From Naegleria gruberi (Eukaryota), in the NCBI GenBank assembly GCA_000004985.1, contig GG738848.1: a stretch of 64,000 nucleotides of DNA, one strand, 5' to 3'. Position numbers and translations under genes: made by a program. Position 1 is the stretch's first letter, and every line of letters starts with the position of its first letter. The notes under the pieces were generated by a model that did not search any database, had not been told where the DNA came from, and saw only the letters and a list, made by a program, of their open reading frames with translations. Of this stretch, positions 4,971 through 62,425 are shown piece by piece.

Positions 4971-6763
4971 ATGAAATTCAATCAAAAAAAAATGTCCAAA
5001 CAACTAGTCCGAAATGTTCTCCTCCAAACAAGCAAGAGAAGTTTTCATACCAGTGCTCAATTAAAGAAGGATTACATCTTGGGAGTTTATAAAGATGGAA
5101 GTTTTTCTCCATCAGCCTATAATTTATTATCGGAACAATTCTTGTCATCACCATTCTTTACAAAGAAGGATTGGAAGGAAGGAAAGATTTCTCTGATTGA
5201 TTGTGGAATGTTTTTTGATGGAAATAAGTGTAGTATTGCAAAGAATGAAATTACTACTGATGATAGAATAGTTTTTGTTGGTTTGGGAGAAAAGGATGTT
5301 TCTACAAAGAAAATTTCATACAAGAAGAAGTTGTTTAAGGAACAATTTGGTCAACATGAAATTGTTGATATTAATCAACCAAGTGTTAGAGATTTGGCCC
5401 AAAAAGCTGTTCAAGCCTTGTTGTCTGATGTTAAAAAACCAAAGGAAGAAAAATCTGAAAAGTCTGAAGAAGAGGAAAATGATTCTACTCTTGAAGTTTT
5501 CATTGATGATTTGACTAATGGTCAAGAAGCAGTTGAAGGATTAAAACTTGGAAGTTGGAAGTTTATTAAATTGTCAAAGAAAACTGCCAGTAAGACACTC
5601 AATCAATTATCTGAAGGAAAGGTTAATGTTTCTTCTAATATTGAAAAGGAAGTTATTGATAGAGCTATTATTTATTCTGATGCTCAAAACTTTTCAGCAT
5701 ACTTGTCTGAATTACCTGCCAACTATCTCACTCCAAAGTTGTTCTGTAAAACAGTAACTGAAAAATTCCAAACTGAATTGGGTGATTTACTCTCAAAGGA
5801 AAATTCACCATTAACCATCAAGGAACACGACAAGAAATGGTGTGAAGAAATGAAGATGGGATCTTTCTTGGGTGTTTCTCAAGGATCTGCTGAGGAGCCA
5901 AGAGTGTTAGAAATTACATTCATGAATAATCCAAAAGATAACACCAACTTTGATATTATCTATGTCGGTAAGGGTATCACTTTTGATTCTGGTGGTATTT
6001 CAATTAAACCAGCTGCAGGAATGAAAGATATGAAGGGAGACATGTCAGGTGCTGGATCTGTTATGGCAACCATGTTGGCTGTTTGTAAATTGAATCTTCC
6101 TGTCAATATCAAGTGTATTGCCATGTTGTGTGAAGTAAGTACATTACAATATTTCATTCATAATTAACATTTGAAAGAATATGCCATCCTCCACTGCCTA
6201 TAAACCAGGTGATGTCATTACAGCAAGAAATGGTAAAACCATTGAAGTTGATAACACTGACGCTGAAGGTAGATTGGCTCTTGCTGATGGTTTGTGTTAT
6301 GCTTCAGAATTCAAACCAAATCATTTGATTGATGTTGCCACTCTTACAGGTGCTTGTGTTGTTGCTTTGGGAACCAAATTGACTGGTTGTTATACCTCAA
6401 CTAATGACATGTGGAAGAGATTTGAAAAGTCAGGTATTAACACAAAGGATTATGTAAGTATTTCACAATCTCATCAAATTTCTGACAATTATTCCAATCT
6501 AATAGATGTGGAGAATGCCATTCATGCCAACTGAATATGAAAAGCAAAATGAAAGCAATGTTGCCCATGTCAAGAACTCTGGAGGTAGAAATGCTGGCAG
6601 TATCACTGCTTGTTGTTTCTTATCCGAATTTGTTGATTTTGAAAAGGTTCCAAATTATGCCCATCTCGATATTGCTGGAACCAATTCAGATGCTAAGGGA
6701 ATTCACAATGGTCGACCAACAAGAGCTCTTATTGAATATGTAAGACTCTTACAAGAAGAATAA
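4971..6763 (+). CDS. Leucyl aminopeptidase (M17 family), join(4971..6134,6178..6453,6506..6763), with a presequence-like N-terminus
   Basis: GTAAGT donors at 6135 and 6454. Acceptors aaag at 6177 and aatag at 6505. All junctions are phase 0. M17 catalytic motif NTDAEGRL and C-terminal ...[12 protein letters not shown]... are conserved. Confidence 0.85.
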
Positions 6764-7013
6764 ACCCTTATTATTATTAATACCTTGATGCAATAATATT
6801 TTCTCTAGAGATTGTCACAGTTTCGGCAACAATTTCGTTCCACTCTTATACAATGTTGCTTAAGAGCTTGATAGTAAACTAAATGAGCACGAAAATGAAT
6901 GAAATATAAAAATCTCTCTAACAGGATAACTAACTTTTGGGAAGATTTAGGATTACTTGCCATCTTTCGTCAGGTTTATTTAAAAAGAAAGCCCTCAAAG
7001 GCCATAAGCATCA

Positions 7014-8492
7014 ATGTTAACTGTGCCTTGTGCCACAACAGAATTCGAAACAATTACCGGTGCCACAGACATTTCGGGCAAAGTAAAAGAAACACAAAAA
7101 ACAATAGAAACAACGAGAAGATCTTCCATTGCAGATATTTCAGAGAGTTACCCAAGTGAATTTTCATTTCATTCAAATTCGTATCTACCACCTGCTAACT
7201 ATTCGAATCCTTCCGAAACCGTTGATGATCACCAACAAGAACCAACAACACTCATTGATCAACTCATACAAACTTTTGACGAATTAATAATTGATAAATT
7301 AGTGATGGGATTACTTACACCAAGAAAAAGAGAACGATTCTCTCTAAATCATCAACATTCGAATAATAATTTAACACCTCTCAGTCCAATAACAAACAGA
7401 AAATCAACACAATCCATGCCAACAACTCCTGTTGGTGAAGATGATTTTGTGAGGATCATGTTGGTGAGTGGAGAAAATTGGGGAGTTGGACAATCATCAA
7501 TTGCAAAGAGATTTGTTTTAAACCAATTTGTAGAGGAAAAGGATTCGGATTTTGTTTCGAAACATGTTTCTAAAAGTTATTCGAAAGAGATTATTCTTCG
7601 AACAGCAACACAAGAAAAGAATAATTTAACACTCCTTGAAGAAAATAACAATAGAATGAAGGAAAATGTTACTGGAAGTGTCGAATCAATTTATTACACA
7701 ACACCACAAATGGCAAATAATAATTTACTAACAATAGGACAGCAGCAGCAACATTCGAATAGTGTTGGGCTTAGTAGTGAAAGGATGAGTTATTTGTATG
7801 ATCAGCAGACAAATGCTTCACCTTCAACTCATTCTCTACTTTCTAATGCTTCATCATCAGTTTCTAATAGTTCAGAATCTTTACTTTTTCATCCAAGAAG
7901 CAATGTAATACTCCAAATTGAAGATTATGTTCCATCCTATATTACTGATTTGGAAACAACCGATGATAGATTATCAAATTGTGAAAATTATTATGATGAA
8001 CAGTTTTATTTGGAATTTAAGAGAAATCAACAAGATTATTATTATGAAAAAGATGTTTTCCTGATTTGTTTTGATGGAAAGAATGAGGATTTTTTGAATT
8101 ATGTGTACAATGAGATTGAAACTATTCGAAATGCATGTGATGAATTCACTGAATATAAAATAATTGCCTTAGTTTTGACTAAACAAGATCTCAACAAGGA
8201 ACAAAATCAAGCAAATGAGGAAATTCATGCCACCACCAGTACTACTATTCTATCTGAGGAGAAACGAGAACAAATGATTGAAAAATTATTGGAAGAAACT
8301 AAATTGGAATTGTTTAGAGTGAGTGCCAAGGATAATGTCAATATTCAGGAATTATTCCAACAAATGGCAGAGAAGGCAATTGCTGTAAAGGAAAAGAAAT
8401 CAAGACTCAAAGCAAAACTGAAAAAGAAAATGGACACTCATCAACATAATAGACAATATGAACAACAAAAACATAAATGTTTATTACAATAA
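7014..8492 (+). CDS. Divergent Ras-superfamily-like GTPase-domain protein (possible pseudo-GTPase) with a long N/S-rich insert
   Basis: ATG at 7014. P-loop-like MLVSGENWGVGQSS lacks the GKS/T. Later DVFLICFDG and IALVLTKQDL sit at G3/G4-like positions. Low-complexity S/N-rich middle. Lys-rich C-terminus. Confidence 0.45.
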   Translation: MLTVPCATTEFETITGATDISGKVKETQKTIETTRRSSIADISESYPSEFSFHSNSYLPPANYSNPSETVDDHQQEPTTLIDQLIQTFDELIIDKLVMGLLTPRKRERFSLNHQHSNNNLTPLSPITNRKSTQSMPTTPVGEDDFVRIMLVSGENWGVGQSSIAKRFVLNQFVEEKDSDFVSKHVSKSYSKEIILRTATQEKNNLTLLEENNNRMKENVTGSVESIYYTTPQMANNNLLTIGQQQQHSNSVGLSSERMSYLYDQQTNASPSTHSLLSNASSSVSNSSESLLFHPRSNVILQIEDYVPSYITDLETTDDRLSNCENYYDEQFYLEFKRNQQDYYYEKDVFLICFDGKNEDFLNYVYNEIETIRNACDEFTEYKIIALVLTKQDLNKEQNQANEEIHATTSTTILSEEKREQMIEKLLEETKLELFRVSAKDNVNIQELFQQMAEKAIAVKEKKSRLKAKLKKKMDTHQHNRQYEQQKHKCLLQ

Positions 8493-26799: not shown

Positions 26800-29694
26800 T
26801 TACTTGAGATATTTGTTAATCTTGGTACAGAGTTTTGTGGCAACTGACATTATACTCAATTCGACGCTACCTCCATAACACTTGTTATATTGACAGCTAT
26901 TTCCATAATAAAAGGAGTTACATGAACAAGTATTCAGATTAATGCAAGATCCAACTCCATTACAAACATTACTAGCATTGGATGCAATTCCAAAACATTG
27001 ATAATTTTCACACATTGAACCACTATATCCAGTATTGCATTGGCAATTATTCATTGATTTACAAATACCCCTTCCTCCACAAACAGTTGTCTGATTGGAA
27101 AATGTTCCATTACATGTGAAAACTTCACAATTGTCACCATAATATCCAGTAATGCAGGTACATGTTCCAGATTGCTGGCATACGCCATTTCCTGAGCAAA
27201 CACTTGCATTGGTTGAGGCAATTCCTCCACAATACCAATCAGATTTGGCCAAAGCAGATGCAAATGATCTTCCAGGAGCAATCATGTAGGGCACGAGTCC
27301 TTCAAAGTGAGATTTCGTATAGAGTAATGATGGTGAGCTAACATAGGAAGTTCCTTCCAATAAAGAAGTTTGATAGTACTCATTTTCTCCCATAGCATAA
27401 ACATTACCTGACTTGGTAATGAAATAATAAGCAGTATGGCTTGCAAATATGTCAACTACAATTTCTGGAATATTAAGAATCAGTCCACCATTTTTAAACA
27501 TGGTCACTGAGCCATCAGTTCTCAAAGCAATCACATGTGAACCAACTGCAAGCTTCCTAACGGGATATGAATAATCCAAGTTGATCAATGTTAATGTTGA
27601 TAAGAAGTTAGCTGTTCCTGTTGTTATTTCATTCTTTTGATTGATTCCACATCCATATACAGTTCCATTTTGAGTTAAAATGAATGTCAACTTGTGTCCA
27701 GCATAAATTTCTTGAATAGTATGTCCATCATTAGTGAGTGAGGTCAAATCAACGCTTGTGATTGAGGTGGCTGAAGTGGAATATCCTGGAATTTGCCCTT
27801 CATAACTTGCACCAACTAAGTTACAAAATTATGTGAAATTTAAAATTTCAAATTCTTAACACAACTTACCAGCAAAAAGCATACCATTACGAAGAAGGAA
27901 CAATGAATGATCATAACCTGCAGCTACAGACTTGATTGGATATGGAAGATCTCCATAAAGATTCAAATTAATAAGACTTGTCGAAGTAGAAGTACCACCA
28001 TCTCCCAATTGATAATTATATCCAGCTCCATAAGAGTACCCTTGTCCACTAATTCTGTCCATAATCAATACATGAGAATCTGTAAGGGCAAAATCAGTGA
28101 AATTTTGATTCAAGAAAACAGATGAATCTATTGATGTCACATCAAATACAGGAATAAACAATGCTTTTTGTGACAGATCCATACCATTGGTACAATTACC
28201 CCATAATTTGTTGTTAAATGTTGGATATTGAGTGTCCAATAGAAGTGTACATCCATAACCTGCCTTAATTTGAGGATTATTTCCTAAAATTGCTGCAGCT
28301 GTTATCTTTGTTGGTTTTTGAACTATCTTAGGATCTCCAATACATGATTGGCCAAGATTGTTAGCTCCAAAATAGTACCATCCATCACTTGCAATAATGT
28401 ATCCATTATTGGTTAACAAAGAAGCTTTCAAAACAGTAAACCCTCCTGAAATAGTTTGAAATCCACTATTTTCTGTTCCCTTTTCCTCTGAATATCCCCA
28501 TGAATAGACATTATTCTGATCATCTATACACATAGAGGCATATCTAGAACATGAACAATCCACTATTGGATTAGTAAATAAATAGGTCAAATTAAGTGGA
28601 GCAGTAACTGTATAAACTGAAGTTGGATCCACTTGCCCATAACCATTTCCTCCAAATCCATAAACTCTATGTTGATCTGTCAGTACCAAAACATGCTGAT
28701 TTCCATAACATGTCTTGATCACTTTTCCATCAATGGCTGGTATTGGAACTTGAACTGGAGTTGAATATGGAGCATCATCAATTCCTGATCCAAATCCATT
28801 AGAATTCATGCCCATCATGTACATTTTACCATCAGTATCTACAAATGTCACTGATGTTTTACTGGCAAGATAGGTCAACATGACATAATCTGCCAAACCA
28901 TTAATATATGTAACATTCTTAATGGATGCAATAATTTGAGGAGTCCATGTGATGAGTGAATCATCTCCATAACCTCTAGTTCCATAATTGTAATATCCCC
29001 ACGAATGAACAAATCCACCTGTGGTGAGAACAAACATTGTCTCTCCTTTTTTGAGATCTCCAGCCACTGCAACCATCTTACATTTGTAATCACTTGGATC
29101 GAGCTCATTTGATGGAAGAGTTACCAAACTCCACTCCTTACTAGTTCCATTCTTCCAATAAACACTACCATCACTCAAACAAGCCAAACAAGAGATGGCA
29201 CACTGAATGTGTGAAATGTTTTTTGAGGTCATTGGATTGTAAACTCTCTGATCAGTTCTGTAAACATAAATTGATTGTAATTCCGAGCTCATAAAAGGTG
29301 GAGCTTGCTCATGAATTCCAGAAACTCCATTCTGATTATTTCCACATGTGAAAATGTGTTGTCCAAGAAAAGAATTCGTTACGTTATTGTAAAAATTAAC
29401 AACATAATAATTGTAAAAGTATCCATTGATAATGTGAGGAAGATCAAGAGTTACTCCACTCGTTGATCCGAAGGCTTTCTGATAGGATTCCTCTGGATTC
29501 GTTTGAAACATCCTGGTTAAATAGGAATTATAAAGAGGATACAATGTTGATTCTTTCAGTGCAGTTGCTCTTTGACCAGCTTCTCCAAAGTTATTCTTTC
29601 CCCATGAAAATACTTGTGATGATGCAACAAGTTTCGTTAGCAATAACAAACACAGACAGATGGCAACGTATTTCAATAGTTGTTTGAGTGACAT
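26800..29694 (-). CDS. Secreted RCC1-repeat (beta-propeller) protein with C-terminal EGF-like cysteine-rich repeats, complement(join(26800..27815,27870..29694))
   Basis: ATG at 29694 followed by signal peptide LLKYVAICLCLLLLTKLVASS. Repeated GxGxxGQLG-like RCC1 blades. GTAAGT donor (RC of acttac 27865-27870). A tag acceptor at 27816-27818 restores the frame (54-nt intron). The C-terminal exon has about five CxCxxGxxGxxC EGF-like modules. Confidence 0.65.
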
Positions 29695-34449: not shown

Positions 34450-37400
34450 TTATTGTCTCTTGTATTTGATGATATATTCAGGATAGCACTGATATCTATC
34501 ATAGACAATCAATTCTCTATATGAATTACTTGTAGTATTTGATTGGCCAATCACACTATCAAAGACTCTTCTATTCTTTCCAACAATTTCTGGAGGTCTT
34601 CTTTGATTGGTCATTCCTTGGGGTGTGAAATAGACTTGTCTTCCCAAAACAACTCTACACAGGAATATAGTATATTCCTTATTAAGGTCTGGAGTGCAAT
34701 ATTGGTCACTCTTTGAACAATACTCAGCAAAATAAACTCCAGCTCCAAATAAACCACCCAAACTTGCAACTCTTTCATCAAATCCATGTTCTGAAATGGT
34801 TGAAACAAATTCAGGTTTTGTTCCGTGCCATAAGTACTTTTCATTCATTCCACTATTCAATCCAACTGTTTTCATCCATTCGTAGGATTTGCTTGTTTTT
34901 GGCAATAGTTCTGTTTGAACTTGGATTGTCTTGATAGGATCTTGATAAGATGTCAAATGATTCATTCTTGATTTGTATGAAGTGAAAAGTGTTGCATTTT
35001 CAATTCTTGAAACACTTGAAACAATTAATTTGGAATAATTCATTTTCACTTGTTGATCTCTACCAGTTCCAAGTGTTGCAGAATTACATGAAACATTGAC
35101 AATATCTTGAATGGTATTTTTCAAATATTTTGTAACATCCACAATGTAAAATCTTTTAGAATAGGATGTGAATGTATTTCTCTTCCAATAACTTGGCAAG
35201 ACAATATTCAATTGTCTAGATTTGGATTCTTCCAATTCCTTTTCCATGTCTTGTAATTTCTTTTCCTTACTTTTCAATCTGCTAATTTGATTTGTAATTT
35301 CTTCTCTTTCCTTAACACTTTGATTGGTGAATTCCTTTGTTTTCTGTTCAAGTTTCTTGATTTCTTGTGTGAGATTGGATTTATCTTGTTTGAGATTGAA
35401 TTTAACTTGATTCAATTGTTTTTCATATTCCTTCAATTGTTTTGATTGATTTGAAATGGATTTGACTTGTTCTTGAACTTTGATTTCATCCAAGAGAGTA
35501 TCCTTCAAAAAGAATTCACAAACAAGAGCATCTGATGCAAATGGTCTGTCATTTGGATCATTAGTCATACATTGTTGAACTAGAGTATTCAATGATGAGT
35601 AAGTATTCAATTCTTGAGCAGTCATACAATTCTTGATGGTTTTTCCAAATGCAAACATATCTGATTTGAATGTTGCTGATTGACCATTCATTAATTCAGG
35701 TGATAGATAGTCATATGTTCCAGAAACAGAAGTTCTAGTGTACAAATTCATTGTTCTACTTTGAACATCCAAACTAACATCAAAATCTCCCAAAATAATT
35801 GGATATAGACCATTGTTACATTCTCCAACAAATATATTCTCAGGTTTGATATCACAATGAATGACACCTCTGGAATGAATATGTTGAATGGCAATTAATA
35901 CTTGTCTCCATGTTCTTTCCCAAAAAAGTACTTCTAATTTGGTGGATTTTCTTTGTTTTTCAAGAAATTCCTTCAAATTACCATTCGAATAATATGGCAT
36001 TACAATATAAACATTGTTGGTGGAATGGCTATTATCATTAGACATGTAAAATCCTTCAATTTCAATAATATTGTTATGTTTCAACTTTTTTGTAATCTTG
36101 AGTTCTTTTTGTAAACTTTCCAATTTTTTGTTATCCTTGATTGAATATTGTTTAATGATATGTTTCTTATCGTTAATATCAGTTCCAATAAACAAGTGAT
36201 GATTTCCATTCCAATCTTGAATTGGCTTAATTTCTTTGAATAAATCGGCTGACATTTCTTCAATATTCATTGTGGATGCAATACTTGATGACAGGATTGA
36301 CTCAACATTGAATCCAATAGTTTTCAATTGGAGGAACTTCAACTTGATTTCATTTGTCTGTTCAATACATTCCTTGAGTACTTTCTTTTTTTCTTGTAAG
36401 GTTGTTTCCTTTTCTTTAATTTCATCCTCAATTTGCATGGATTCAGTCTTGTTTGTAACATGTACTAATTCATCTCTCAATCCATCAATGTCAAGTTTAA
36501 TAATGGTCAATTCTCTTGTTACTCTTGCTTTCTTTCTTTGTAAAGCAGAATATTGTTCTGTCAATTGCTTGTAATCATTCATAATGTTTACAATATTTTG
36601 CAATTGTTCATGTTGTTCAATAATGAATGGAATGGTTTCTTGAATGAGCTTGTTTCCATTATTAAATTGATTTTGATAATCACAATAAATTTGATAAATT
36701 CCAATTTGAACTAGTTCAGGAAGCAAATTTTTAGTATTAGAAATTGCTTTTTGTAATTCCAATTCCTCCTTTGAAAGCATTTCCATTGCAATCTCTAAAT
36801 TATTTGCAATTCCATTCAAATTAACACTTGTGGCATTATTAATGGATGATGCAATATTTTGTAATTGAGTTGAAATATTTTGTAAAACATTTTTGGATTT
36901 TCCTTCATAATTTGAATCTGTAGTTGAACCATTTAAACTTTTAAGTGTTTTTTGAATTTTTTCAATTGTTAATTCCTTATTTAGGTTATCATTAGCATTG
37001 TAATATTGTAATTGATCTTGATTCAAGTAATTTTGAACAAATTCATCAAATATTTGTAATTTTTCATCTAATGCTTGAATATAGCTATTCAATTGAATTA
37101 AATAATTTTCTGAATTAATTCTTTCTACTATATTTGTAATATTTAACATGTCATTATTAATTAAAGCCACATGTTCAACATTTTCAATATCACACTTATT
37201 ATTCATCAATCTATCATTAATAGTTGAACAACATTCGGATAAAACTCCATTAATTTTCGAATAAACTTGTTGTAGCTCAGTATCAAATGATAATTGATCT
37301 GAAAGTGGAATTACCGAATTCAATTGAGAAGTTACTTGTTTTCTATATTGAGAAACTTTCTCATTCAATGAACACAACTCTGTGAAAACTTGAAATACTG

Positions 37401-38571
37401 AAAGGAAAGTTTGTTTCTTTTCCTTTTCAATTCTTTCCTGTTCAAGTCTTTCGTTTTCAATTCTTTCTTGTTCGAATCTTATTTGATCAGCACGTTCCTT
37501 TTCAAGTCTCTTCTTTTCCAACATTTCTTTTGTAATTCTTTCCTTTTCAATTCTTTCCTTTTCGAGTTTGTCGACTTCTTGTTTAATTATGGAAATTGAT
37601 TTTCCATTAATTTTTAAATTGTTATCAACAACGATATTTGGGGAAGCAAGTAGCAATTTGACAATTTCTAAATTTCCTTTTTGGCAAGCAATAAACAAAG
37701 GAGTGAACTATATATGGTAATATAACTAAATTAATAAATTAAATTTACTTACATTCTAATAAAAATTAGTAAAAAATTTAAATAATAATTGATTGCTTAC
37801 ATTCTATAATGATACATTGAGTATTGAAATATTTCAAATAAATTTTTACTTACATACTAAAATTAATTAATTAAAAAAAATTAATAAAAAATTTTTACTT
37901 ACTCGCTATTTAAATTTTAAATAAAATTAAAAAATAATTAAATACTCACATCCTAATAAACAATATTAAAAAATCAATTAAATTTTACTTACAAACTAAA
38001 TAATATTAACATGTAAATAATAAAATATTATTACTTACAAACTATTATTTTAAAAATTATAAATTTTAAAAATTAAAGCACTTACTCTCTAATAATTATT
38101 TAATACATTTAAAATTAAGTATATTAAGTAATACCTACTTCCTATATAAATATTAAATAAAAAATCGACCATGTAAAATACTTACATACTAAAAATGGAA
38201 TTAAATAAAAAAATAAAATTTTTAACTTACAGTCTATTAAAAATTAAATAAACATTTAAATATAAAACACTCACACCCTACCATCATTAATATATCCAAT
38301 ACATTCACTTCATAACTACTTACACACTAAAAATGTCAACTGTCAACACAATAAATCAAATACTCACACCCTTGTTCACATTAATTTCTGCATAATTCAA
38401 CAATAATTTAACAATTTCCACGCGTCCATTTTCACAAGCATTATACAACATTGTCTTTCCTATTTTTCCATTAGAATATTCATTGATATCTGCTTTTTTA
38501 AACCATTGTTTAAATTCCTTGACATTTCCTGTGGAGGCAGCATCAAGTGCGTTCTCAAAGTTTTTGGACAT
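34450..38571 (-). CDS. Ankyrin-repeat / coiled-coil / protein-kinase-like / PARP-catalytic-domain fusion protein. Last exon 34450..37707, first exon 38368..38571, separated by the mini-intron array.
   Basis: ANK repeats in both exons (GKTMLYNACENGRVEIVKLLL; TPLFIACQKGNLEIVKLLL). Kinase catalytic loop HCDIKPENI with DFD and SPE. C-terminal PARP fold with H-G-T...Y...E (WHGTKPEF, GAGVYFAEY, YRELIVYD). The exon 1 ATG is at 38571; the track M at 38592 is GTG. The internal exon structure is in the feature at 37708..38367. Confidence 0.7.
37708..38367 (-). other. Array of 14 consecutive canonical mini-introns (40-50 nt each), separated by exactly 3-nt spacers (13 putative single-codon micro-exons)
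   Basis: On the minus strand every unit reads TAG|NNN|GT(A/G)AG(T/C). Plus-strand spacer positions are 38324-26, 38274-76, 38231-33, 38186-88, 38139-41, 38086-88, 38039-41, 37993-95, 37950-52, 37903-05, 37854-56, 37801-03 and 37753-55. Unit interiors share no sequence similarity. Only the splice signals and the 3-nt spacing are conserved. Confidence 0.6.
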
Positions 38572-38807
38572 TTTTTTGATCTTGTTGAGCACTCATTCGA
38601 GTAGTAAAGATTATACACAAGATAACACTTCGTTTACTACTGTCAGATCACGTTTCGAGTTGATGGTTGATGGAATGGTTTCTAGAAAAGGAAGATCATG
38701 CCATAATACTTGGAAAAATCTAAATTGTTTTTTACAATGTAAATATTCTTCAAAATAATGTTCGAGTGGAATAGCTGATAAAGAGAATTCAATAAATAAT
38801 TATTTAT

Positions 38808-44382: not shown

Positions 44383-44862
44383 CCACGATGGTTTTTCCCT
44401 CCGTCTTGTATTATTAATATGTATGCAATGATTATCATCAATAATATTTCTTTACATATTTCCGATCTAAATAATTAAAAAACATACTCCAAATTTACAA
44501 CAGGTCGATAATTATCTTGCTGCAGCTGCTCTGATGATGTACCGTTTGCGTTTGTTGAAGAATTTTCACCACTGCTAACATGATTAGTAGAAGTTGGACT
44601 TTGGTGCGTGGGCATTTTTTTGTTATTATTATTCAATTTAAACAAGTTTGGAATTTTTACAGCGCACAATGCAAAAATGAACTACAAACAAGAATGGTAC
44701 AAAAATCTCCATAGATGAATAGATTCCACAAATGCGGAGATGCTCCTAAGTAGGAGAACTAGCATAGTTACGCAGACTTCCTTAGTTTTCCTAAAGTTAA
44801 AAACTTGGCGGAGACATGCTGTGATGGATACAAATATTACACAATTTTTATTATTGACAATT

Positions 44863-45949
44863 TTAATCAAGGAAACCTTGAACTTTCTTTGAAGTGTAGG
44901 CACTTTGTAAGTATTCAACTTCTTCCTTGGTCAACTCAATTTCACAAGCAGCAACACTCAATTCTACATTTGCTTCCTTAGTTGCTCCAATGATTGGACT
45001 TGCAACTCCTGGCTTTGCTAATAACCAAGCGATGGCAATTTGAGCGGGAGTGTAGTTTCTCTTTTTAGCAATTTCTGAAACTCTTCTCATTGTTTCTTTG
45101 TCGCCTTCTGTCAATTGCTCAATCATTTGTTTTTGGAAGAAATCAGAGGTTGATCTTTTGGATTCTCCTTCAATTCGTTCAGTTTCGACAAAGTCATGAG
45201 CTCTAGCTAACATTCCATTAGAGAGAGGACCCCAAGGAGTGAGAGAAACCTTTTGATCGACACAGAGTGGTACCATTTCTCTTTCCTCTTCTCTGTAGAG
45301 TAAATTATACAGATTTTGCATGGAAATAAACTTGGTTAAACCTTTAGTTTCAGCATAATGTTGAGCTTTAGCAAATTGCCAAGCAAACATTGTAGAAGCG
45401 CCAATGTATCTGACCTTTCCTGACTTAACAAGTTCATGAAGAGTTTGCATGGTTTCTTCAATTGGAGTATCCTTATCCCAACGATGAATAATATACAAAT
45501 CAATATCTGAAACCATTAGTTTAGAATAAAACAAAGCAGAATAACTTACAATCAGTTCCCAATCTTTCCAAAGAGTCCTCAACAGCTTGCAAAATATGCT
45601 TTCTTGAAAGACCATGAGAATTAGGTTTCTTTTCCTTGCTAAGCAAAAGTATTTTTTGTTCACCTGATTTGTCAACTGGACCAAAAACTTTGGTAGCAAT
45701 CACAACTTGTTCTCTTGGAATGTTGTTTTCCTTAATAAATTTACCCAAGATTCTTTCACTATCTCCATTGCTATAGATATTGGCAGTATCAAAGAAGTTG
45801 ATTCCCAAGTCCCAAGCTTTCTTAAGAATTGGCATTGAGGCACTTTCGTCCAATACCCAATCTGCAAATTTTGGAGAACCGAAACTCATACAACCCAAGC
45901 TGAGTTGAGAAACCTTCAAACCAGAATTACCCAAGTTAACGTATTTCAT
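44863..45949 (-). CDS. Aldo-keto reductase, complement(join(44863..45506,45550..45949))
   Basis: AKR N-terminus MKYVNLGNSGLKVSQLSLGCMSFG...DTANIY. GTAAGT donor (RC of acttac 45544-45549). ttcag acceptor (RC of ctg 45507-45509). The phase 1 junction gives LGTD-Y-IDLYIIHRWD, which matches the AKR IDLYxIHxPD motif. Confidence 0.8.
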
Positions 45950-49761: not shown

Positions 49762-50430
49762 ATGATGAAATTACACCGAAGACATAATTCTTCCACCATC
49801 AACCTAGAACAACTAAGTCAAACTTACGAATTTCCATTTGAAGCTATTTTTGATGTTCCGGAAGCTAAAGAGGAATTTAGATTATATCTCAAAAAAGAAC
49901 ACAATGAAGAACCATTTATGTTTTTTGAAGATGTTGAAGAATTTAAAAGATTGAAATTTGAAGAAAACAAAACTAAAAAGGCAATCACAATTTTAAAAAC
50001 CTACATTTTACCAAATAGTCAACACGAAATTAATATTTCAAGTCAACAAAGACAATCAATTATTGAAGAATTTGAGAAGGTTTCACAATTGTTGAATGAT
50101 AAGCATTTATTGGTTAATGAAGGTATTTATGATGAGGTTCAAACAAGTGTATTCTATAGTTTGAAGAATGACAATTATCCAAGATTTACCTCATCGACAC
50201 ATTTCAAGAATTTCATCAAGCACAAGGATGCTGCATTTATTTCATCAATTGCAGTTAAAAAATCAACCAAATATATGGAATATATTCCTAAATTTGATGG
50301 ATTAGTTACAGATAGAGATATTACATTCTTTTCATTTATGAGTTTCAATTTTGATATGGATGTTTGGGATGAAGTTAATATTGGTATGTTTTATGAACGA
50401 ATTATTATGATTGAAATTATTAAAATGTGA
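49762..50430 (+). CDS. RGS-domain protein
   Basis: RGS helices FEAIFDVPEAKEEFRLYLKKEHNEEPFMFFEDVEEFKR...ILPNSQHEINIS...YDEVQTSVFYSLKNDNYPRF. Confidence 0.65.
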   Translation: MMKLHRRHNSSTINLEQLSQTYEFPFEAIFDVPEAKEEFRLYLKKEHNEEPFMFFEDVEEFKRLKFEENKTKKAITILKTYILPNSQHEINISSQQRQSIIEEFEKVSQLLNDKHLLVNEGIYDEVQTSVFYSLKNDNYPRFTSSTHFKNFIKHKDAAFISSIAVKKSTKYMEYIPKFDGLVTDRDITFFSFMSFNFDMDVWDEVNIGMFYERIIMIEIIKM

Positions 50431-50463
50431 TAATTAGCAAAGGGTGGTAAGAGAGCTTGTTAC

Positions 50464-55677: not shown

Positions 55678-57405
55678 TTAATAATTAAAATCAAAGGGAG
55701 GAACATCATCAAGATGATGACGAGGATTATCAGTCGAACAACAAATAATAGGAAGGAGAGCTTCAAATAGGCTTTCATCTTCATGCATCCAAGCTGGTAA
55801 TAACATTGAATCATCAACCTTCCTATCTTCCTCTTCTTCATCAAATAGGGAAATATTATGGTGTTTCAAGTAATCTTCAAACACCTGACAATCATCCAAA
55901 TGTTCATAAGGTTCCCAAGTCTCATCTGGATAACCCAACCATTGAATATGATACAAGTAGGATTTTCTAGATTGATCACTTCCCTTGAATACTTTTTCAT
56001 GGTCAACAATAACCTTGATGGTATATTCCTCTGTGGTTGGTTTGGGTTCATACTGTTGATATTCCTCTTCATCACTTTCCTCTTGTTTATCATCACCACA
56101 TTCATTGAAGAGGGCATAATTTCTCTTGATAGGTTTTCTCTTCTCTGTGAGGATTAAACTCTGGTCAAGGCAATCATCACCAAGCTTCTTCTTCATTCTC
56201 TGGCTTTGATAGTAGGGATGGTCAGCTTTGAAAGCATTGAGTGCTTGCCTTTGTCCCATTCCACAATAGACCTTGCTGTGTTTGAAATGTGAACGATGAG
56301 CAAAAAAGATGAAGGAAAATCTCTTCTGTTCATAATCATTGGAAGGCTCTTTGGATGATTGAACTGGGTTGTCTCCATCAGTGGGTTCTTGCTTTGGACA
56401 AGTATTGATAAGAGTTGGAGTATTATCATCAGCTTGAGGATTATTCAATGTTGGAGAAGAATTTTCACAAATTTTCACATCATCAACTTCAGTTTGGGAA
56501 GAATTGGCAAGTGGAAAACTTTGAGGACGAGTTGGAGAAACAGCATGACGATACTTGTTAGCTCTCAGCAAGACAACATCACCTGCTTGAATGTGGACAA
56601 GTGTTTTTGGAGTATGTTCATTCACTCGAATCAATTGAAGGGATCCACCTCCAAATTTTCCCATATAGAACATGGCAGAGATTCCCATATCATTTCTGTC
56701 ACGATGATTTGTCTTTGGACGATTGACTTTATCTGTAGACTTATATGAGCCTTGGAATTTCTCCTTGACTGATTCATTTCTTGTTGGAATCATGTTGAAA
56801 CATACAACTGGAGTTTGACCTCTTTCTGTCAATTTGGATAATTTAGCAAATAGTTTGGGATTTGCCAATTCCAAAATATGTTGAAAGGTATCATGTAAGA
56901 GAGCTTGTATCTGTTTCACTTTGGTATCAACTAGCTCAAATCGAAAGCTATCAGCACATTTGTATCCCATTGGCATATTCATTGTCCACCATCCAGAAAA
57001 GAAACTTCCCTTATCAATATCCTTTTCAGTAGCTAACCATTCACTCATCTCCCTACAAAGTTGAGTGCATTCTTCCAATAGACTTGGAGGCAATACTGAT
57101 TTCAACAAGGCCATTTCAACCATTCCTTCTTTTGTGACGATAATAGTATTTGAGGAGATTTCTTTTGGAATGGTATCATTTACACCATATACTGATAGAA
57201 TGGGTTCATTGGATTGAATATTATTTCCTTTAAGGAATTCCCATTCTTTTATCATTTTGTAAACTCTAGTTTTACCAGATTCATCTATGCTTTTCTCATT
57301 TTCCCAACACACTCTTGTTAAGGCTTGAGCTTTCAAAAATTGTTTCTTTCGTCTTCTGTGTTTGGGTTTCTTCTTGTCGTGCTGAGATACATGCAGTGGA
57401 CCCAT
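55678..57405 (-). CDS. Tet/JBP-family 2OG-Fe(II) dioxygenase with C-terminal chromodomain
   Basis: The core matches the NgTet1-type DSBH as recalled from memory: HRDRNDMGISAMFYMGKFGGGSLQL (HxD), VHIQAGDVVLLRANKYRHAV (distal His), RFSFIFFAHRS (2OG-binding Arg). A low-complexity insert sits between the last two motifs. C-terminal chromodomain EEYTIKVIVDHEKVF...YLYHIQWLGYPDETWEPYEHL. Confidence 0.8.
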   Translation of the reverse strand: MGPLHVSQHDKKKPKHRRRKKQFLKAQALTRVCWENEKSIDESGKTRVYKMIKEWEFLKGNNIQSNEPILSVYGVNDTIPKEISSNTIIVTKEGMVEMALLKSVLPPSLLEECTQLCREMSEWLATEKDIDKGSFFSGWWTMNMPMGYKCADSFRFELVDTKVKQIQALLHDTFQHILELANPKLFAKLSKLTERGQTPVVCFNMIPTRNESVKEKFQGSYKSTDKVNRPKTNHRDRNDMGISAMFYMGKFGGGSLQLIRVNEHTPKTLVHIQAGDVVLLRANKYRHAVSPTRPQSFPLANSSQTEVDDVKICENSSPTLNNPQADDNTPTLINTCPKQEPTDGDNPVQSSKEPSNDYEQKRFSFIFFAHRSHFKHSKVYCGMGQRQALNAFKADHPYYQSQRMKKKLGDDCLDQSLILTEKRKPIKRNYALFNECGDDKQEESDEEEYQQYEPKPTTEEYTIKVIVDHEKVFKGSDQSRKSYLYHIQWLGYPDETWEPYEHLDDCQVFEDYLKHHNISLFDEEEEDRKVDDSMLLPAWMHEDESLFEALLPIICCSTDNPRHHLDDVPPFDFNY

Positions 57406-61460: not shown

Positions 61461-62425
61461 TTATTGTTGATGACTTCCGAAGAGAGATTGTGCTCTGGTG
61501 AGTGTCTTGCTCCAAAATAAATTTCTTAATAAACTTCCTTGATTGTCTGATGAAGTGGAAGATGAATCACTTGTCTTGACTGTTGAATTTTTGTCTACAT
61601 TATGATTAGATGCAGTATCAGAAGGAGTTGCAGTAGATTCAGAAGGAGTGACATATTCTTGGCTACTTTCATATTTTGAAAGAATTTTCAATAATTGTTG
61701 AGTTGATTTTGGAGAAATCTTATTTGGAAATTGAATATTGAAATAAATGACCAAATCCCCAAATGTTTCATCCTCTGTTGGCATTCCTTCTCCTTTAACA
61801 CTTTTCAAATGAATTAGAATATTCCTTCATATGAAATCTCTTAAACTTACACATGAAAATAATCTGGAGTAATTAAATTTTGACTATTATCAATTCTAAC
61901 ATCCAACTTTTTCACACCAAATAAATCAATTTGAAAAGAAACCAATTCACTTGTCAATGCTTCTTTCAGAGTAAGAGTATGAACATATTTCAAATGCTCC
62001 TGATCAGGTCCAACTCTCTCCAATTTTAAATCCTTTTCCTTCACTGGTTCCACAATTACAACCAAATCACCAGTTGATGAATTTCTATCCTTTACCTGAT
62101 CATCAAATTCACCTTCTCCTTCAAAAACAATTCTTTTCCGATATTTAAATCCTCTGGGAATTTGTATTTCCCTCTCCACCAACATGGACATGGATTGTCC
62201 TTGAATTCTAACCTTCCGAATGAAGGTAATTAATTTGTTACAACCAAAATATAATTCCCTGAGAGTACATGGGAGAGAAACATAGATATCCAACACAGAA
62301 TTGGTTCGGAATATTGGTGATTCTTCTATTTTAAAATTCATAATATTGAATCTTTCTAAAAACAAGTATTTAATGTTTTGGCAATTTTTTTCAATTTTAA
62401 TAATTAATTTTAATAATTTAATCAA
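61461..62425 (-). CDS. DnaJ C-terminal-domain (Hsp40 substrate-binding) protein with no J domain seen, complement(join(61461..61800,61851..62425))
   Basis: DnaJ CTD I/II pattern (..GDLVVIVEPVKEKDLKLERVGPDQEHLKYVHTLTLKEALTSEL.. then ..KGEGMPTEDETFGDLVIYFNIQFP..). GTAAGT donor (RC of acttac 61845-61850). aaaag acceptor at 61801-61802. The 5' start is uncertain. Confidence 0.55.

What the first reader, a model, noticed from the sequence alone, without database searches (positions are those of the whole stretch)
37708..38367. Fourteen back-to-back mini-introns separated by exactly 3 nt: a run of 13 single-codon micro-exons (or a staged/recursive splicing ladder) inside an ankyrin repeat
Between exon 1 (ends 38368, ...EINVNKG) and the main exon (starts 37707, FTPLFIACQKGN...), the minus strand reads as 14 repeats of [GT(A/G)AGT - 34-44 nt AT-rich - TAG] followed by exactly 3 nt. 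The introns are 40-50 nt long, the same size class as confirmed introns elsewhere in the window. Donors are nine GTAAGT, three GTGAGT, one GTAGGT and one GTAAGC. All acceptors are TAG. The 13 spacers are TGT, GGT, ACT, TAT, GAA, AGA, TTT, TTT, GAT, CGA, TAT, AAT, AAT, none a stop, and would encode CGTYERFFDRYNN. Unit interiors share no sequence similarity, so this is not a simple tandem repeat. What is conserved is the splice signals and the 3-nt spacing, which keeps the frame whichever subset is included. Possible readings are serial micro-exons, recursive splicing in which each AG|NNN|GTAAGT regenerates a donor, alternative isoforms varying an ankyrin loop by 0-13 residues, or relics of repeated intron gain. 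I know of no described locus like this.
Basis: seen in the sequence. Interest (0 to 1): 0.92.

Follow-up and report, generated by a model that had tools for sequence, protein, structure and literature searches.

The report
Ladder of introns splitting single codons
In a Naegleria gruberi gene, 14 tiny introns stand head to tail with exactly one codon between each pair. Similar intron ladders occur in other microbial eukaryotes, and I found no description of this gene architecture in the papers I could search.

Summary
On the minus strand, 38367..37708 holds 14 units of GT[AG][AG]G[TC]…TAG, each 40-50 nt long. Exactly 3 nt separate neighbours. The window is Naegleria gruberi NEG-M. The ladder joins an ankyrin exon (38571..38368) to a 1085-codon exon (37707..34450) encoding ankyrin, coiled coil, kinase and PARP domains.

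The units match the 11 ordinary introns of the window in size (38-54 nt) and splice signals. Their interiors are unrelated, yet all 28 splice sites and all 13 spacers are intact. Retaining any unit gives a stop or a frameshift. The spacers have exon-like base composition.

A homologous gene on an environmental contig (L001) has a ladder one codon away from the same ankyrin position, with 91%-matching 45-nt units. Ladders also occur in unrelated organisms (L003, L031, L075, L107). In the young ladders the introns are about 90-95% identical while the 3-nt spacers are unrelated.

Best reading: 14 separately spliced phase-0 introns and 13 single-codon exons, produced by repeated local copying of an intron. 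No transcript data were available. Why the spacing is exactly 3 nt, and how the copying works, remain open. Nine literature searches found no description. Interest is high.

The parts
38368..38571 (-). Exon 1: ATG plus 68 codons, MSKNF...EINVNKG. It holds an N-terminal cap and ankyrin repeat 1.
   Evidence: Translation. Pfam Ank, Ank_2 and Ank_3 hits span this exon and the next coding exon.
38327..38367 (-). Intron 1, 41 nt, GTGAGT...TAG
38324..38326 (-). Single-codon exon 1, TGT (C)
38278..38323 (-). Intron 2, 46 nt, GTAAGT...TAG
38275..38277 (-). Single-codon exon 2, GGT (G)
38234..38274 (-). Intron 3, 41 nt, GTGAGT...TAG
38231..38233 (-). Single-codon exon 3, ACT (T)
38189..38230 (-). Intron 4, 42 nt, GTAAGT...TAG
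38186..38188 (-). Single-codon exon 4, TAT (Y)
38142..38185 (-). Intron 5, 44 nt, GTAAGT...TAG
38139..38141 (-). Single-codon exon 5, GAA (E)
38089..38138 (-). Intron 6, 50 nt, GTAGGT...TAG
38086..38088 (-). Single-codon exon 6, AGA (R)
38042..38085 (-). Intron 7, 44 nt, GTAAGT...TAG
38039..38041 (-). Single-codon exon 7, TTT (F)
37996..38038 (-). Intron 8, 43 nt, GTAAGT...TAG
37993..37995 (-). Single-codon exon 8, TTT (F)
37953..37992 (-). Intron 9, 40 nt, GTAAGT...TAG
37950..37952 (-). Single-codon exon 9, GAT (D)
37906..37949 (-). Intron 10, 44 nt, GTGAGT...TAG
37903..37905 (-). Single-codon exon 10, CGA (R)
37857..37902 (-). Intron 11, 46 nt, GTAAGT...TAG
37854..37856 (-). Single-codon exon 11, TAT (Y)
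37804..37853 (-). Intron 12, 50 nt, GTAAGT...TAG
37801..37803 (-). Single-codon exon 12, AAT (N)
37756..37800 (-). Intron 13, 45 nt, GTAAGC...TAG
37753..37755 (-). Single-codon exon 13, AAT (N)
37708..37752 (-). Intron 14, 45 nt, GTAAGT...TAG
34450..37707 (-). Last exon: 1085 codons plus stop, FTPLFIACQKGN...KYKRQ*. It holds ankyrin repeat 2, coiled coil, a protein kinase domain (aa 518-699 of this exon), coiled coil, and a PARP catalytic domain (aa 936-1083).
   Evidence: ORF, translation, Pfam hits

Best explanation
The 660-nt stretch is a ladder of 14 independent, very short, phase-0 spliceosomal (GT-AG) introns. It lies in the loop-coding part of the first ankyrin repeat of an unannotated N. 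gruberi gene with ankyrin, coiled-coil, kinase and PARP domains. Each intron is removed on its own, presumably by intron definition, as for the other ~45-nt introns of this genome. The 13 three-nucleotide spacers are therefore real single-codon exons. Full inclusion adds CGTYERFFDRYNN to the loop between ankyrin repeats 1 and 2. Every spacer is 3 nt, so any donor joined to any later acceptor also stays in frame, and mis-pairing only shortens the loop.

The ladder arose by repeated local copying of an intron at a phase-0 intron site just before the [ST]PL motif of the ankyrin repeat. Young ladders in other organisms still show near-identical units. In N. gruberi the interiors have drifted apart, and only the splice signals and the 3-nt spacing are kept by selection.

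Shown: the anatomy, the conservation pattern, the recurrence elsewhere, and the fact that the copied unit is the intron rather than intron plus codon. Inferred: that splicing occurs, that most or all codons are included, and that the ladder is a tolerated by-product rather than an adaptation. Unknown: the molecular copying mechanism and the reason for exactly 3 nt.
For: (1) Anatomy and chance. All 11 TAGNNNGTRAGT sites of the window lie in the ladder, against 0.68 expected.

(2) Intron class. Eleven ordinary introns of the window are 38-54 nt with GTAAGT or GTATGT donors and AG acceptors. The ladder units are 40-50 nt.

(3) Selection on each unit. The interiors are no more alike than unrelated introns, yet 14/14 donors, 14/14 TAG acceptors and 13/13 three-nt spacers are intact. 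The interiors are only 9.5% G+C, so the G's of the splice signals have resisted the AT drift. Retaining any single unit gives an in-frame stop or a frameshift.

(4) Spacers look exonic. Their G+C is 23%, against 9.5% in intron interiors (Fisher p=0.014) and 29.5% in the CDS (p=0.48).

(5) Exon 1 is a well-kept ankyrin repeat. It forms one Ank_2 domain with the start of the last exon, so the two must be joined in frame.

(6) Homologue. Contig L001 encodes P0104, which is 45% identical to this protein over its kinase region. The contig starts inside a ladder of at least 5 introns of 42-45 nt separated by TGG, CAA, CGA and GTT. That ladder ends directly before TPLYAACSQGHLEIVKEL, one codon from the N. 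gruberi position. Its units repeat with a 45-nt period at 91% matches.

(7) Unrelated organism. L003 (17% G+C) carries a 29-aa ankyrin exon, then 5 related introns separated by AAA TGG AAT AGT, then the next ankyrin exon. 29+4 = 33 aa is the canonical repeat length. Pfam Ank_5 scores 94.5 bits with the four residues and 75.4 without. This argues that such codons are included.

(8) Further ladders occur in L031, L075 and L107.

(9) The copied unit is the intron. Mean pairwise difference in intron columns vs spacer columns is 0.048 vs 0.83 (L001), 0.047 vs 0.78 (L075) and 0.094 vs 0.60 (L107). Ordinary tandem repeats caught by the same pattern have identical 'spacers'.
Against: There is no transcript evidence of any kind. 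The gene has no counterpart in the 5.8-billion-protein collection, so not even a gene model exists to compare.

Full inclusion gives a 16-residue loop between 'VN' and 'TPL'. The N. gruberi paralogue P0100 has 5-7 residues there. The Pfam ankyrin score is slightly lower with all 13 residues (Ank_2 59.3 bits) than with none (64.8) or with the last four (64.0). Partial skipping could therefore be the norm.

The absence of stop codons among 13 spacers is not significant on its own (P about 0.27-0.30).

How two spliceosomes deal with splice sites 3 nt apart is not known for this organism.

Plain duplication of [intron+codon] does not explain the unrelated codons. Insertion between pre-existing codons does not explain the over-long N. 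gruberi loop. The origin model is therefore incomplete.
Confidence: 0.7

Rival explanations
1. Functional combinatorial splicing. The ladder is used as a diversity or length generator. Donors pair with varying downstream acceptors, so the ankyrin loop carries anywhere from 0 to 13 extra residues (up to 2^13 in-frame products). This variability would be the selected function.
For: Every donor-acceptor combination is in frame by construction. The loop is the usual binding surface of ankyrin repeats (established knowledge of the fold). The zero-inclusion repeat is 30 aa, three to four short of the canonical 33, and full inclusion is ten too long, so intermediate products would fit best. Ladders recur at the same ankyrin position in N. 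gruberi, L001 and L003.
Against: There are no RNA data. Organisms with short introns generally pair the nearest sites (intron definition), which predicts full inclusion. In L003 all four codons are needed for a 33-aa repeat. Ladders L031, L075 and L107 are not demonstrably in ankyrin loops. The frame-neutral design is equally explained by selection against frameshifting mis-splicing.
Confidence: 0.15
2. A single 660-nt intron is spliced from donor 38367 to acceptor 37708. The internal GTAAGT/TAG pairs are unused decoys or relics, and none of the 13 codons reaches the mRNA.
For: Zero inclusion gives the best Pfam Ank_2 score, by 0.8-5.5 bits. No transcript contradicts it.
Against: Unused sites would decay as the interiors did. 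Instead 26 internal splice signals and 13 exact 3-nt spacings persist in sequence that is otherwise 9.5% G+C and unalignable. All 11 other introns in the window are 54 nt or shorter. Strong internal sites 40-50 nt apart would outcompete a 660-nt pairing. Spacer composition is exon-like. In L003 the codons are needed for a canonical repeat.
Confidence: 0.1
3. The locus is a decaying or dead N-terminus. Exon 1 is no longer joined to the big ORF, which would be translated from an internal start. The ladder would be a neutral relic of a past intron or minisatellite expansion.
For: The gene is absent from the public protein sets searched. The N. fowleri-like and N. lovaniensis relatives lack the ankyrin N-terminus altogether.
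Against: Exon 1 keeps an intact ATG, an open frame and a recognisable ankyrin repeat. All 28 splice sites are intact. The paralogue P0100 and the homologue P0104 keep the same N-terminal ankyrin region.
Confidence: 0.04
4. It is an ordinary AT-rich tandem repeat, or a chance arrangement, that merely resembles splice signals.
For: Most metagenome hits to the ladder pattern are exactly that, for example (GTAA)n-type microsatellites and plain minisatellites.
Against: The period varies from 43 to 53 nt, and no unit similarity exists beyond the splice signals. Those trivial repeats have identical 'spacers', often TAA. The motif count is 11 against 0.68 expected, and all 11 are clustered. The ladder exactly bridges two halves of an ankyrin domain in frame.
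Confidence: 0.01

Closest known systems
Micro-exons, including 3-nt and even 1-nt exons of animals and plants (reviewed in PMC13149111; plants in PMC8831610; the Drosophila hth 3-bp exon in PMC7392893)
   Same: These are exons of one codon or less, flanked by canonical splice sites. They are in frame and are often missed by annotation.
   Different: The known cases I found are single, or at most two or three adjacent (RPS24 with 3, 18 and 22 bp; a rice 5+12 nt pair). They are usually flanked by normal or long introns. Here 13 single-codon exons follow one another, each flanked by ~45-nt introns, and the arrangement recurs as a multiplied unit in several organisms.
Recursive splicing at zero-nucleotide ratchet points (AG|GTAAGT) in long introns (PMC13149111)
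   Same: A 3' splice site is closely followed by a regenerating 5' splice site. Stepwise removal must occur, because neighbouring sites are too close for simultaneous recognition (inference).
   Different: Ratchet sites have no exonic nucleotide and sit in introns longer than 10 kb. Here 3 nt stay in the mRNA after each step, and the whole ladder is 660 nt.
Introner and introner-like elements: families of near-identical introns multiplied within a genome (PMC3609843, PMC4457414; discussed in PMC10996645)
   Same: In the young ladders (L001, L075, L107) the copied unit coincides exactly with the intron. The copies sit between unrelated exonic nucleotides, with no target-site duplication.
   Different: Introners are dispersed over many genes. 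Here the copies are strictly local, head to tail, and always 3 nt apart. No other copy occurs in the 64-kb window.
Introns created from tandem arrays or by tandem genomic duplication (Zhuo et al. 2007 PNAS, cited as ref. 100 in PMC3488318, content recalled from memory; the potato RdRp case in PMC4974935; PMC2812944)
   Same: Tandem multiplication of a unit carrying splice signals yields several alternative or serial introns.
   Different: In those models the duplicated unit includes exon sequence, and the repeats are uniformly similar. In the ladders the 3 exonic nucleotides are the least conserved positions of the unit.
Spliceosomal twin introns (stwintrons) of fungi (PMC5639578)
   Same: These are unconventional multi-intron arrangements that need ordered splicing.
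   Different: Stwintrons are nested, with one intron interrupting a splice signal of another. The ladder units lie side by side with complete signals.

Membership tests
U2-type GT-AG spliceosomal introns of N. gruberi | 5' splice site GTRAGT-like | tested here: met
   14/14 units have GT[AG][AG]G[TC]. Ordinary window introns have GTAAGT or GTATGT.
U2-type GT-AG spliceosomal introns of N. gruberi | 3' splice site AG, and length in the genome's intron size class | tested here: met
   14/14 acceptors are TAG and lengths are 40-50 nt. The 11 reference introns are 38-54 nt.
U2-type GT-AG spliceosomal introns of N. gruberi | Removal restores a continuous reading frame and protein domain | tested here: met
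   Exon 1 and the last exon join in frame into one Ank_2 domain, with or without the 13 codons.
U2-type GT-AG spliceosomal introns of N. gruberi | Recognisable branch site upstream of the AG | tested here: inconclusive
   TTAAT- and TTGAC-like motifs are present in every unit, but they are expected by chance in sequence that is about 90% A+T.
U2-type GT-AG spliceosomal introns of N. gruberi | Excision seen in RNA | not testable with these tools
   No N. gruberi transcript or protein for this gene is in the collections searched.
Micro-exons | Very short exon (3-30 nt) bounded by functional splice sites, usually a multiple of 3 | tested here: met
   13 spacers of exactly 3 nt lie between complete acceptor and donor motifs. 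Their composition is exon-like.
Micro-exons | Inclusion in mature mRNA | not testable with these tools
   Only indirect evidence exists: conservation of the internal sites, and the L003 repeat reaching 33 aa only with its four codons.
Recursive splicing (zero-nucleotide ratchet sites) | AG immediately followed by GT (no exonic nucleotide) inside a very long intron | tested here: not met
   3 nt separate every AG from the next GT, and the total length is 660 nt. Definition taken from PMC13149111.
Ordinary tandem repeat / minisatellite | Units of constant period with sequence similarity throughout, spacer included | tested here: not met
   The period is 43-53 nt. Interiors are no more alike than unrelated introns. 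TRF gives only weak partial rows. In the young ladders the spacer columns are 6-17 times more diverse than the intron columns.
Introner / introner-like elements | Many near-identical intron copies dispersed in unrelated genes of one genome | tested here: inconclusive
   No ladder-type junction or related intron occurs elsewhere in the 64-kb window. The copies in L001, L075 and L107 are local, not dispersed.
Intron gain by tandem duplication of an AGGT-containing exon segment | The new intron is a copy of flanking exon sequence, and the duplicated exon parts are identical | tested here: not met
   The introns are AT-rich and unlike the flanking ankyrin exons. The spacers are mutually unrelated.

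The most novel reading that the evidence does not exclude
Intron ladders are the footprint of an undescribed local intron-multiplication process whose copy unit is the excised intron itself. Two routes are conceivable. In one, the spliceosome reverse-splices the intron next to its parent, into nascent RNA or into the displaced DNA strand. In the other, a template-switching reverse transcriptase makes concatemers of excised introns, adding about 3 untemplated nucleotides at each jump, and these are integrated at the parent intron. The process would be active in several eukaryotic lineages. It would create runs of single-codon exons and, in some cases, lengthen protein loops one residue at a time.
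Probability: 0.35. Interest if true: 0.92.

Novelty: new variant of a known kind. Interest (0 to 1): 0.82.

Why it matters
How new spliceosomal introns arise is a long-standing open question, and natural examples caught in the act are rare. These ladders offer a series of ages: about 95% identical units in L001 and L075, intermediate in L003 and L031, and fully diverged in N. gruberi. In this series the copied unit has exactly the boundaries of the excised intron, while the flanking codons are unrelated. That pattern is predicted by RNA-mediated intron propagation and not by plain DNA duplication. N. gruberi is culturable, so the splicing of 14 introns only 3 nt apart can be tested directly. 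That would probe the lower limit of exon size and the order of splice-site use. Ladders also matter for annotation. Gene finders cannot model single-codon exons, and this 1150-plus-residue protein is missing from the protein collection I searched. Finally, ladders may be a way in which protein loops grow or vary.

Tried and rejected
1. Looking for the gene's own model or transcripts. Three protein searches found no protein above about 67% identity, so there is no annotation or assembled cDNA to show the splice pattern.

2. Fetching DNA of the N. gruberi paralogue P0100 and of neighbouring genes. These are not on record in the contig index.

3. N. lovaniensis (L002) and N. fowleri-like (L123) relatives lack the ankyrin N-terminus and have no ladder. 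They are uninformative about conservation.

4. Contigs L124/L125 (60% G+C relatives) and L174/L175 (ankyrin proteins P0115 and P0116) have no ladders.

5. Metagenome pattern scan. Most of the 120 loci are (GTAA)n-type microsatellites or plain minisatellites with identical spacers. They were rejected as artefacts of the pattern and used as a control.

6. Viral-contig scan. It found only ordinary tandem repeats.

7. Known RNA families. No Rfam match in 37500-38700.

8. Homology of the 13-residue peptide to the paralogue's loop. BLASTP places CGTYERFFDRYNNF opposite CKTIDVNLTDYRDY with only 3 identities, so this is not evidence.

9. Similarity of the L001 intron to N. gruberi units 1, 2 and 14 (z 2.5-3). 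It is suggestive only, given 28 comparisons.

10. A Pfam scoring test of inclusion versus skipping for N. gruberi did not discriminate.

11. A target-site-duplication transposon model was rejected by reasoning. It predicts identical 3-mers on both sides of each unit, which are not seen.

12. Nine literature searches found no description of runs of single-codon exons.
Full report
**Source and gene**

Exact matches of five window ORFs to GenBank proteins EFC49253, EFC49400, EFC49404, EFC49410 and EFC49411 identify the window as Naegleria gruberi strain NEG-M, on a 712,659-bp scaffold.

The finding lies in a minus-strand gene with this layout:
- Exon 1 runs 38571..38368. It holds the ATG and 68 codons, ending ...EINVNKG.
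- The 660-nt ladder follows.
- One large exon runs 37707..34450, with 1085 codons.

Pfam finds ankyrin repeats spanning exon 1 and the start of the large exon. It also finds a protein kinase domain and a C-terminal PARP catalytic domain. No protein more than about 67% identical exists in the 5.8-billion-protein collection, although neighbouring genes are there. The gene appears to be unannotated.

**The observation**

- There are 14 units, 40-50 nt long.
- Donors are 9 GTAAGT, 3 GTGAGT, 1 GTAGGT and 1 GTAAGC. All 14 acceptors are TAG.
- The 13 spacers of exactly 3 nt are TGT GGT ACT TAT GAA AGA TTT TTT GAT CGA TAT AAT AAT.

The junction motif TAGNNNGTRAGT occurs 11 times in 64 kb, all within the ladder, against 0.68 expected from shuffles.

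The interiors are not detectably related. Their mean pairwise alignment score exceeds shuffled controls by z=3.2, and 11 unrelated introns of the same window give z=2.9. Adjacent units are no closer than distant ones. Tandem Repeats Finder reports only weak partial periodicity. No Rfam family matches. Neither strand has an ORF of 50 aa or more lying inside the ladder; the only two that reach it are the flanking exons' own frames running a few nt past its edges.

**Are the units introns?**

I located 11 ordinary introns elsewhere in the window by requiring long open frames on both sides. They are 38-54 nt, with GTAAGT (7) or GTATGT (4) donors and TAG (6), AAG (4) or CAG (1) acceptors. The ladder units belong to the same class.

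The ladder uses only TAG acceptors and no GTATGT donors. That fits common descent of its units. The chance of 14/14 TAG, given the 6/11 frequency elsewhere, is about 2e-4.

The key argument is the conservation pattern:
- The interiors have drifted to 9.5% G+C and are unalignable, whereas ordinary introns have 19.8% G+C.
- All 28 splice signals and all 13 three-nt spacings are nonetheless intact.
- Retention of any single unit produces an in-frame stop or a frameshift. This explains why each unit must remain spliceable.
- Once an internal acceptor is used, the following 3 nt are committed to the mRNA. Conservation of the internal sites therefore implies that the spacers are exonic.
- Spacer G+C (23%) differs from intron interiors (p=0.014) and not from the coding sequence at 29.5% (p=0.48).

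The lack of stop codons among 13 spacers is not significant by itself (P about 0.3).

**Comparative evidence**

The second protein search found relatives in N. gruberi (P0098, P0100, P0103), N. lovaniensis (P0102), N. fowleri (P0099) and in metagenomes. The N. lovaniensis and N. fowleri-like loci lack the ankyrin N-terminus and have no ladder.

The homologue P0104 sits on an ENA metagenome contig (L001). That contig begins inside a ladder:
- It has four 42-nt introns and a fifth of 45 nt.
- The spacers are TGG, CAA, CGA and GTT.
- The ladder ends directly before ACT CCA TTG TAT... (TPLYAACSQGHLEIVKEL).

This is the same place in the ankyrin repeat as in N. gruberi (|FTPLFIACQKGNLEIVKLL), shifted by one codon. 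In L001 the units repeat with a 45-nt period over 4.5 copies at 91% matches. Ladders therefore start as multiplied copies of one intron, and the N. gruberi ladder is an old, diverged one.

**Generality**

Most hits are trivial. They are (GTAA)n-like microsatellites or ordinary minisatellites in which the 'spacer' is identical in every unit. All hits in viral contigs are of that kind.

Four loci are different:
- **L003** (17% G+C). A 29-codon ankyrin exon ([29 protein letters not shown]) is followed by five related introns of 35-44 nt, separated by AAA TGG AAT AGT, and then by the next 29-codon ankyrin exon. 29+4 = 33 residues is the canonical ankyrin repeat length. Pfam Ank_5 scores 94.5 bits with KWNS and 75.4 without. 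The first repeat of that gene has a single intron at the same position.
- **L031.** At least 12 introns of 51-68 nt with pyrimidine-rich interiors and CTAAC-like boxes, and 11 three-nt spacers.
- **L075.** Five nearly identical 53-54-nt introns with spacers TTG, TCA, TAT and CGT.
- **L107.** About 30 near-identical 57-66-nt units with a TACTGAC or TACTAAC box.

Intron ladders thus occur in several unrelated eukaryotes. Three of the six seen lie just before the [ST]PL motif of an ankyrin repeat.

**What is copied**

In the three young ladders, the three spacer columns include the single most variable column of the unit and rank among its most variable. Their mean pairwise difference is 0.83, 0.78 and 0.60. 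The intron columns give 0.048, 0.047 and 0.094. Plain tandem duplication of [intron+codon] predicts identical codons.

Duplication with codons does happen locally. Examples are AGA four times in L107, and TTT TTT and AAT AAT in N. gruberi. L107 also shows block duplications that keep particular intron variants with particular codons. But this cannot account for the basic pattern.

The copied unit therefore has the boundaries of the excised intron. That points to one of three routes:
- An RNA-level intermediate, by reverse splicing of the excised intron. This idea is discussed for introners and for a catalytically active intron-lariat spliceosome in PMC10996645.
- cDNA concatemers of excised introns joined with a few untemplated nucleotides.
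- Gene conversion confined to the introns.

L003 favours introns inserted between pre-existing codons. The N. gruberi loop favours addition of codons: it has 16 residues between VN and TPL, against 5-7 in paralogue P0100. I cannot decide between these, and none explains by itself why the spacing is always exactly 3 nt. Selection explains multiples of three, because skipping then stays in frame. It does not explain the absence of 6 or 9.

**How it most likely works**

- Shown: the anatomy, the selective maintenance of each splice site and of the 3-nt spacing, the recurrence at a homologous site and in other lineages, and the intron-bounded copy unit.
- Inferred: the 14 introns are removed one by one. 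Neighbouring sites are too close for simultaneous recognition, so removal must be sequential. Most or all of the 13 codons end up in the mRNA, adding up to CGTYERFFDRYNN to the loop between ankyrin repeats 1 and 2. Mis-pairing of donors and acceptors only shortens this loop.
- Not known: the actual isoform spectrum. Pfam scores do not discriminate (Ank_2 gives 64.8 bits with none, 64.0 with the last four, and 59.3 with all 13).

**Comparison with known systems**

- Single 3-nt or 1-nt micro-exons are known in animals and plants.
- Recursive splicing uses zero-nucleotide AG|GT sites in very long introns. That definition is not met here.
- Introner-like elements are near-identical introns dispersed among genes. 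Here the copies are strictly local.
- Introns born from tandem arrays or duplications include exon sequence in the repeat. Here the exonic 3 nt are the unconserved part.
- Stwintrons are nested, not serial.

Nine full-text searches with many phrasings found no description of runs of single-codon exons or intron ladders. This covers only the library held. Much of the subscription literature is not included.

**Verdict**

The reading as 14 introns and 13 single-codon exons left by repeated intron gain is the best supported. It lacks RNA proof, and I give it confidence 0.7.

The arrangement is a new variant of known elements (spliceosomal introns and micro-exons). It has an unexplained, recurrent and apparently undescribed mode of origin. 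Interest is 0.82.

Noticed in passing
window 34450-38571 (-): The ankyrin, coiled-coil, kinase and PARP gene that carries the ladder has no counterpart above about 67% identity in the 5.8-billion-protein collection. Neighbouring N. gruberi genes are present as exact matches. The gene seems to be missing from the public annotation, possibly because gene finders cannot model the ladder.
   Followed up: partly
L001 1-225 (ENA ERZ27315067 k141_1457473): A homologous gene on a metagenome contig starts inside a young ladder. It has at least 5 introns of 42-45 nt, a 45-nt period at 91% matches, and spacers TGG CAA CGA GTT. It lies one codon from the N. gruberi position. The 3'-most intron is the most divergent.
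   Followed up: yes
L003 1111-1316 (Ga0207864_1037532, 17% G+C): In an unrelated AT-rich organism, an ankyrin repeat is split into a 29-codon exon plus four single-codon exons (K, W, N, S) by five related introns. The total is the canonical 33 residues. The preceding repeat has a single 82-nt intron at the same place, and the next repeat again ends in a GTAAGT intron at the contig end.
   Followed up: yes
L107 about 4999-7045 (Ga0247757_10003439): About 30 near-identical 57-66-nt intron-like units with a TACTGAC/TACTAAC box are separated by 3 nt. The run begins at ...TTACAG|ATG|GTGGGT and reaches the contig end. No long ORF flanks it. The spacers alone would read MFLREQLQQEEMEVKLEIRRRRQRRELLEQ. 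It is either an ORF built only of single-codon exons or a non-coding host transcript.
   Followed up: partly
L031 1-753 (Ga0193713_1068682) and L075 minus strand from position 284 of the reverse-complemented contig (JACKZZ010005374.1): Two more ladders. L031 has at least 12 diverged 51-68-nt introns with CTAAC-like boxes and 11 spacers. L075 has five nearly identical 53-54-nt introns with unrelated spacers. The host proteins were not identified, and an ankyrin-like ORF lies downstream in L075.
   Followed up: partly
L004-L122 (metagenome scan) and L126-L173 (viral scan): The ladder pattern mostly catches (GTAA)n-like microsatellites, with spacers TAA or TTA and unit lengths of 4n+1. It also catches ordinary minisatellites with identical spacers. 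Many come from a few sample series. They are useful as a negative control but are a warning for any genome-wide ladder census.
   Followed up: yes
window 37708-38367 (-): Ladder intron interiors are much more AT-rich (9.5% G+C) than the 11 other introns of the window (19.8%).
   Followed up: no
window 38327-38367, 38278-38323, 37708-37752 vs L001 1-225: There is weak residual similarity between the L001 intron unit and N. gruberi units 1, 2 and 14 (z 2.5-3.0 against shuffles, not corrected for 28 comparisons). This may be a trace of a shared ancestral intron.
   Followed up: partly
window 55678-57405 (-): This ORF (EFC49410) combines a Tet/JBP-like dioxygenase region with a C-terminal chromodomain. 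The dioxygenase region matches the solved Naegleria Tet-like dioxygenase 4lt5 and 5cg8 at E about 1e-7.
   Followed up: partly
window 27816-27869, 44450-44487, 45507-45549, 61801-61850 (-); 726-770, 1154-1205, 2484-2531, 2828-2872, 6135-6177, 6454-6505, 50384-50437 (+): These are eleven ordinary short introns (38-54 nt), inferred from ORF continuity only. They were used here as the reference set for N. gruberi intron features.
   Followed up: partly
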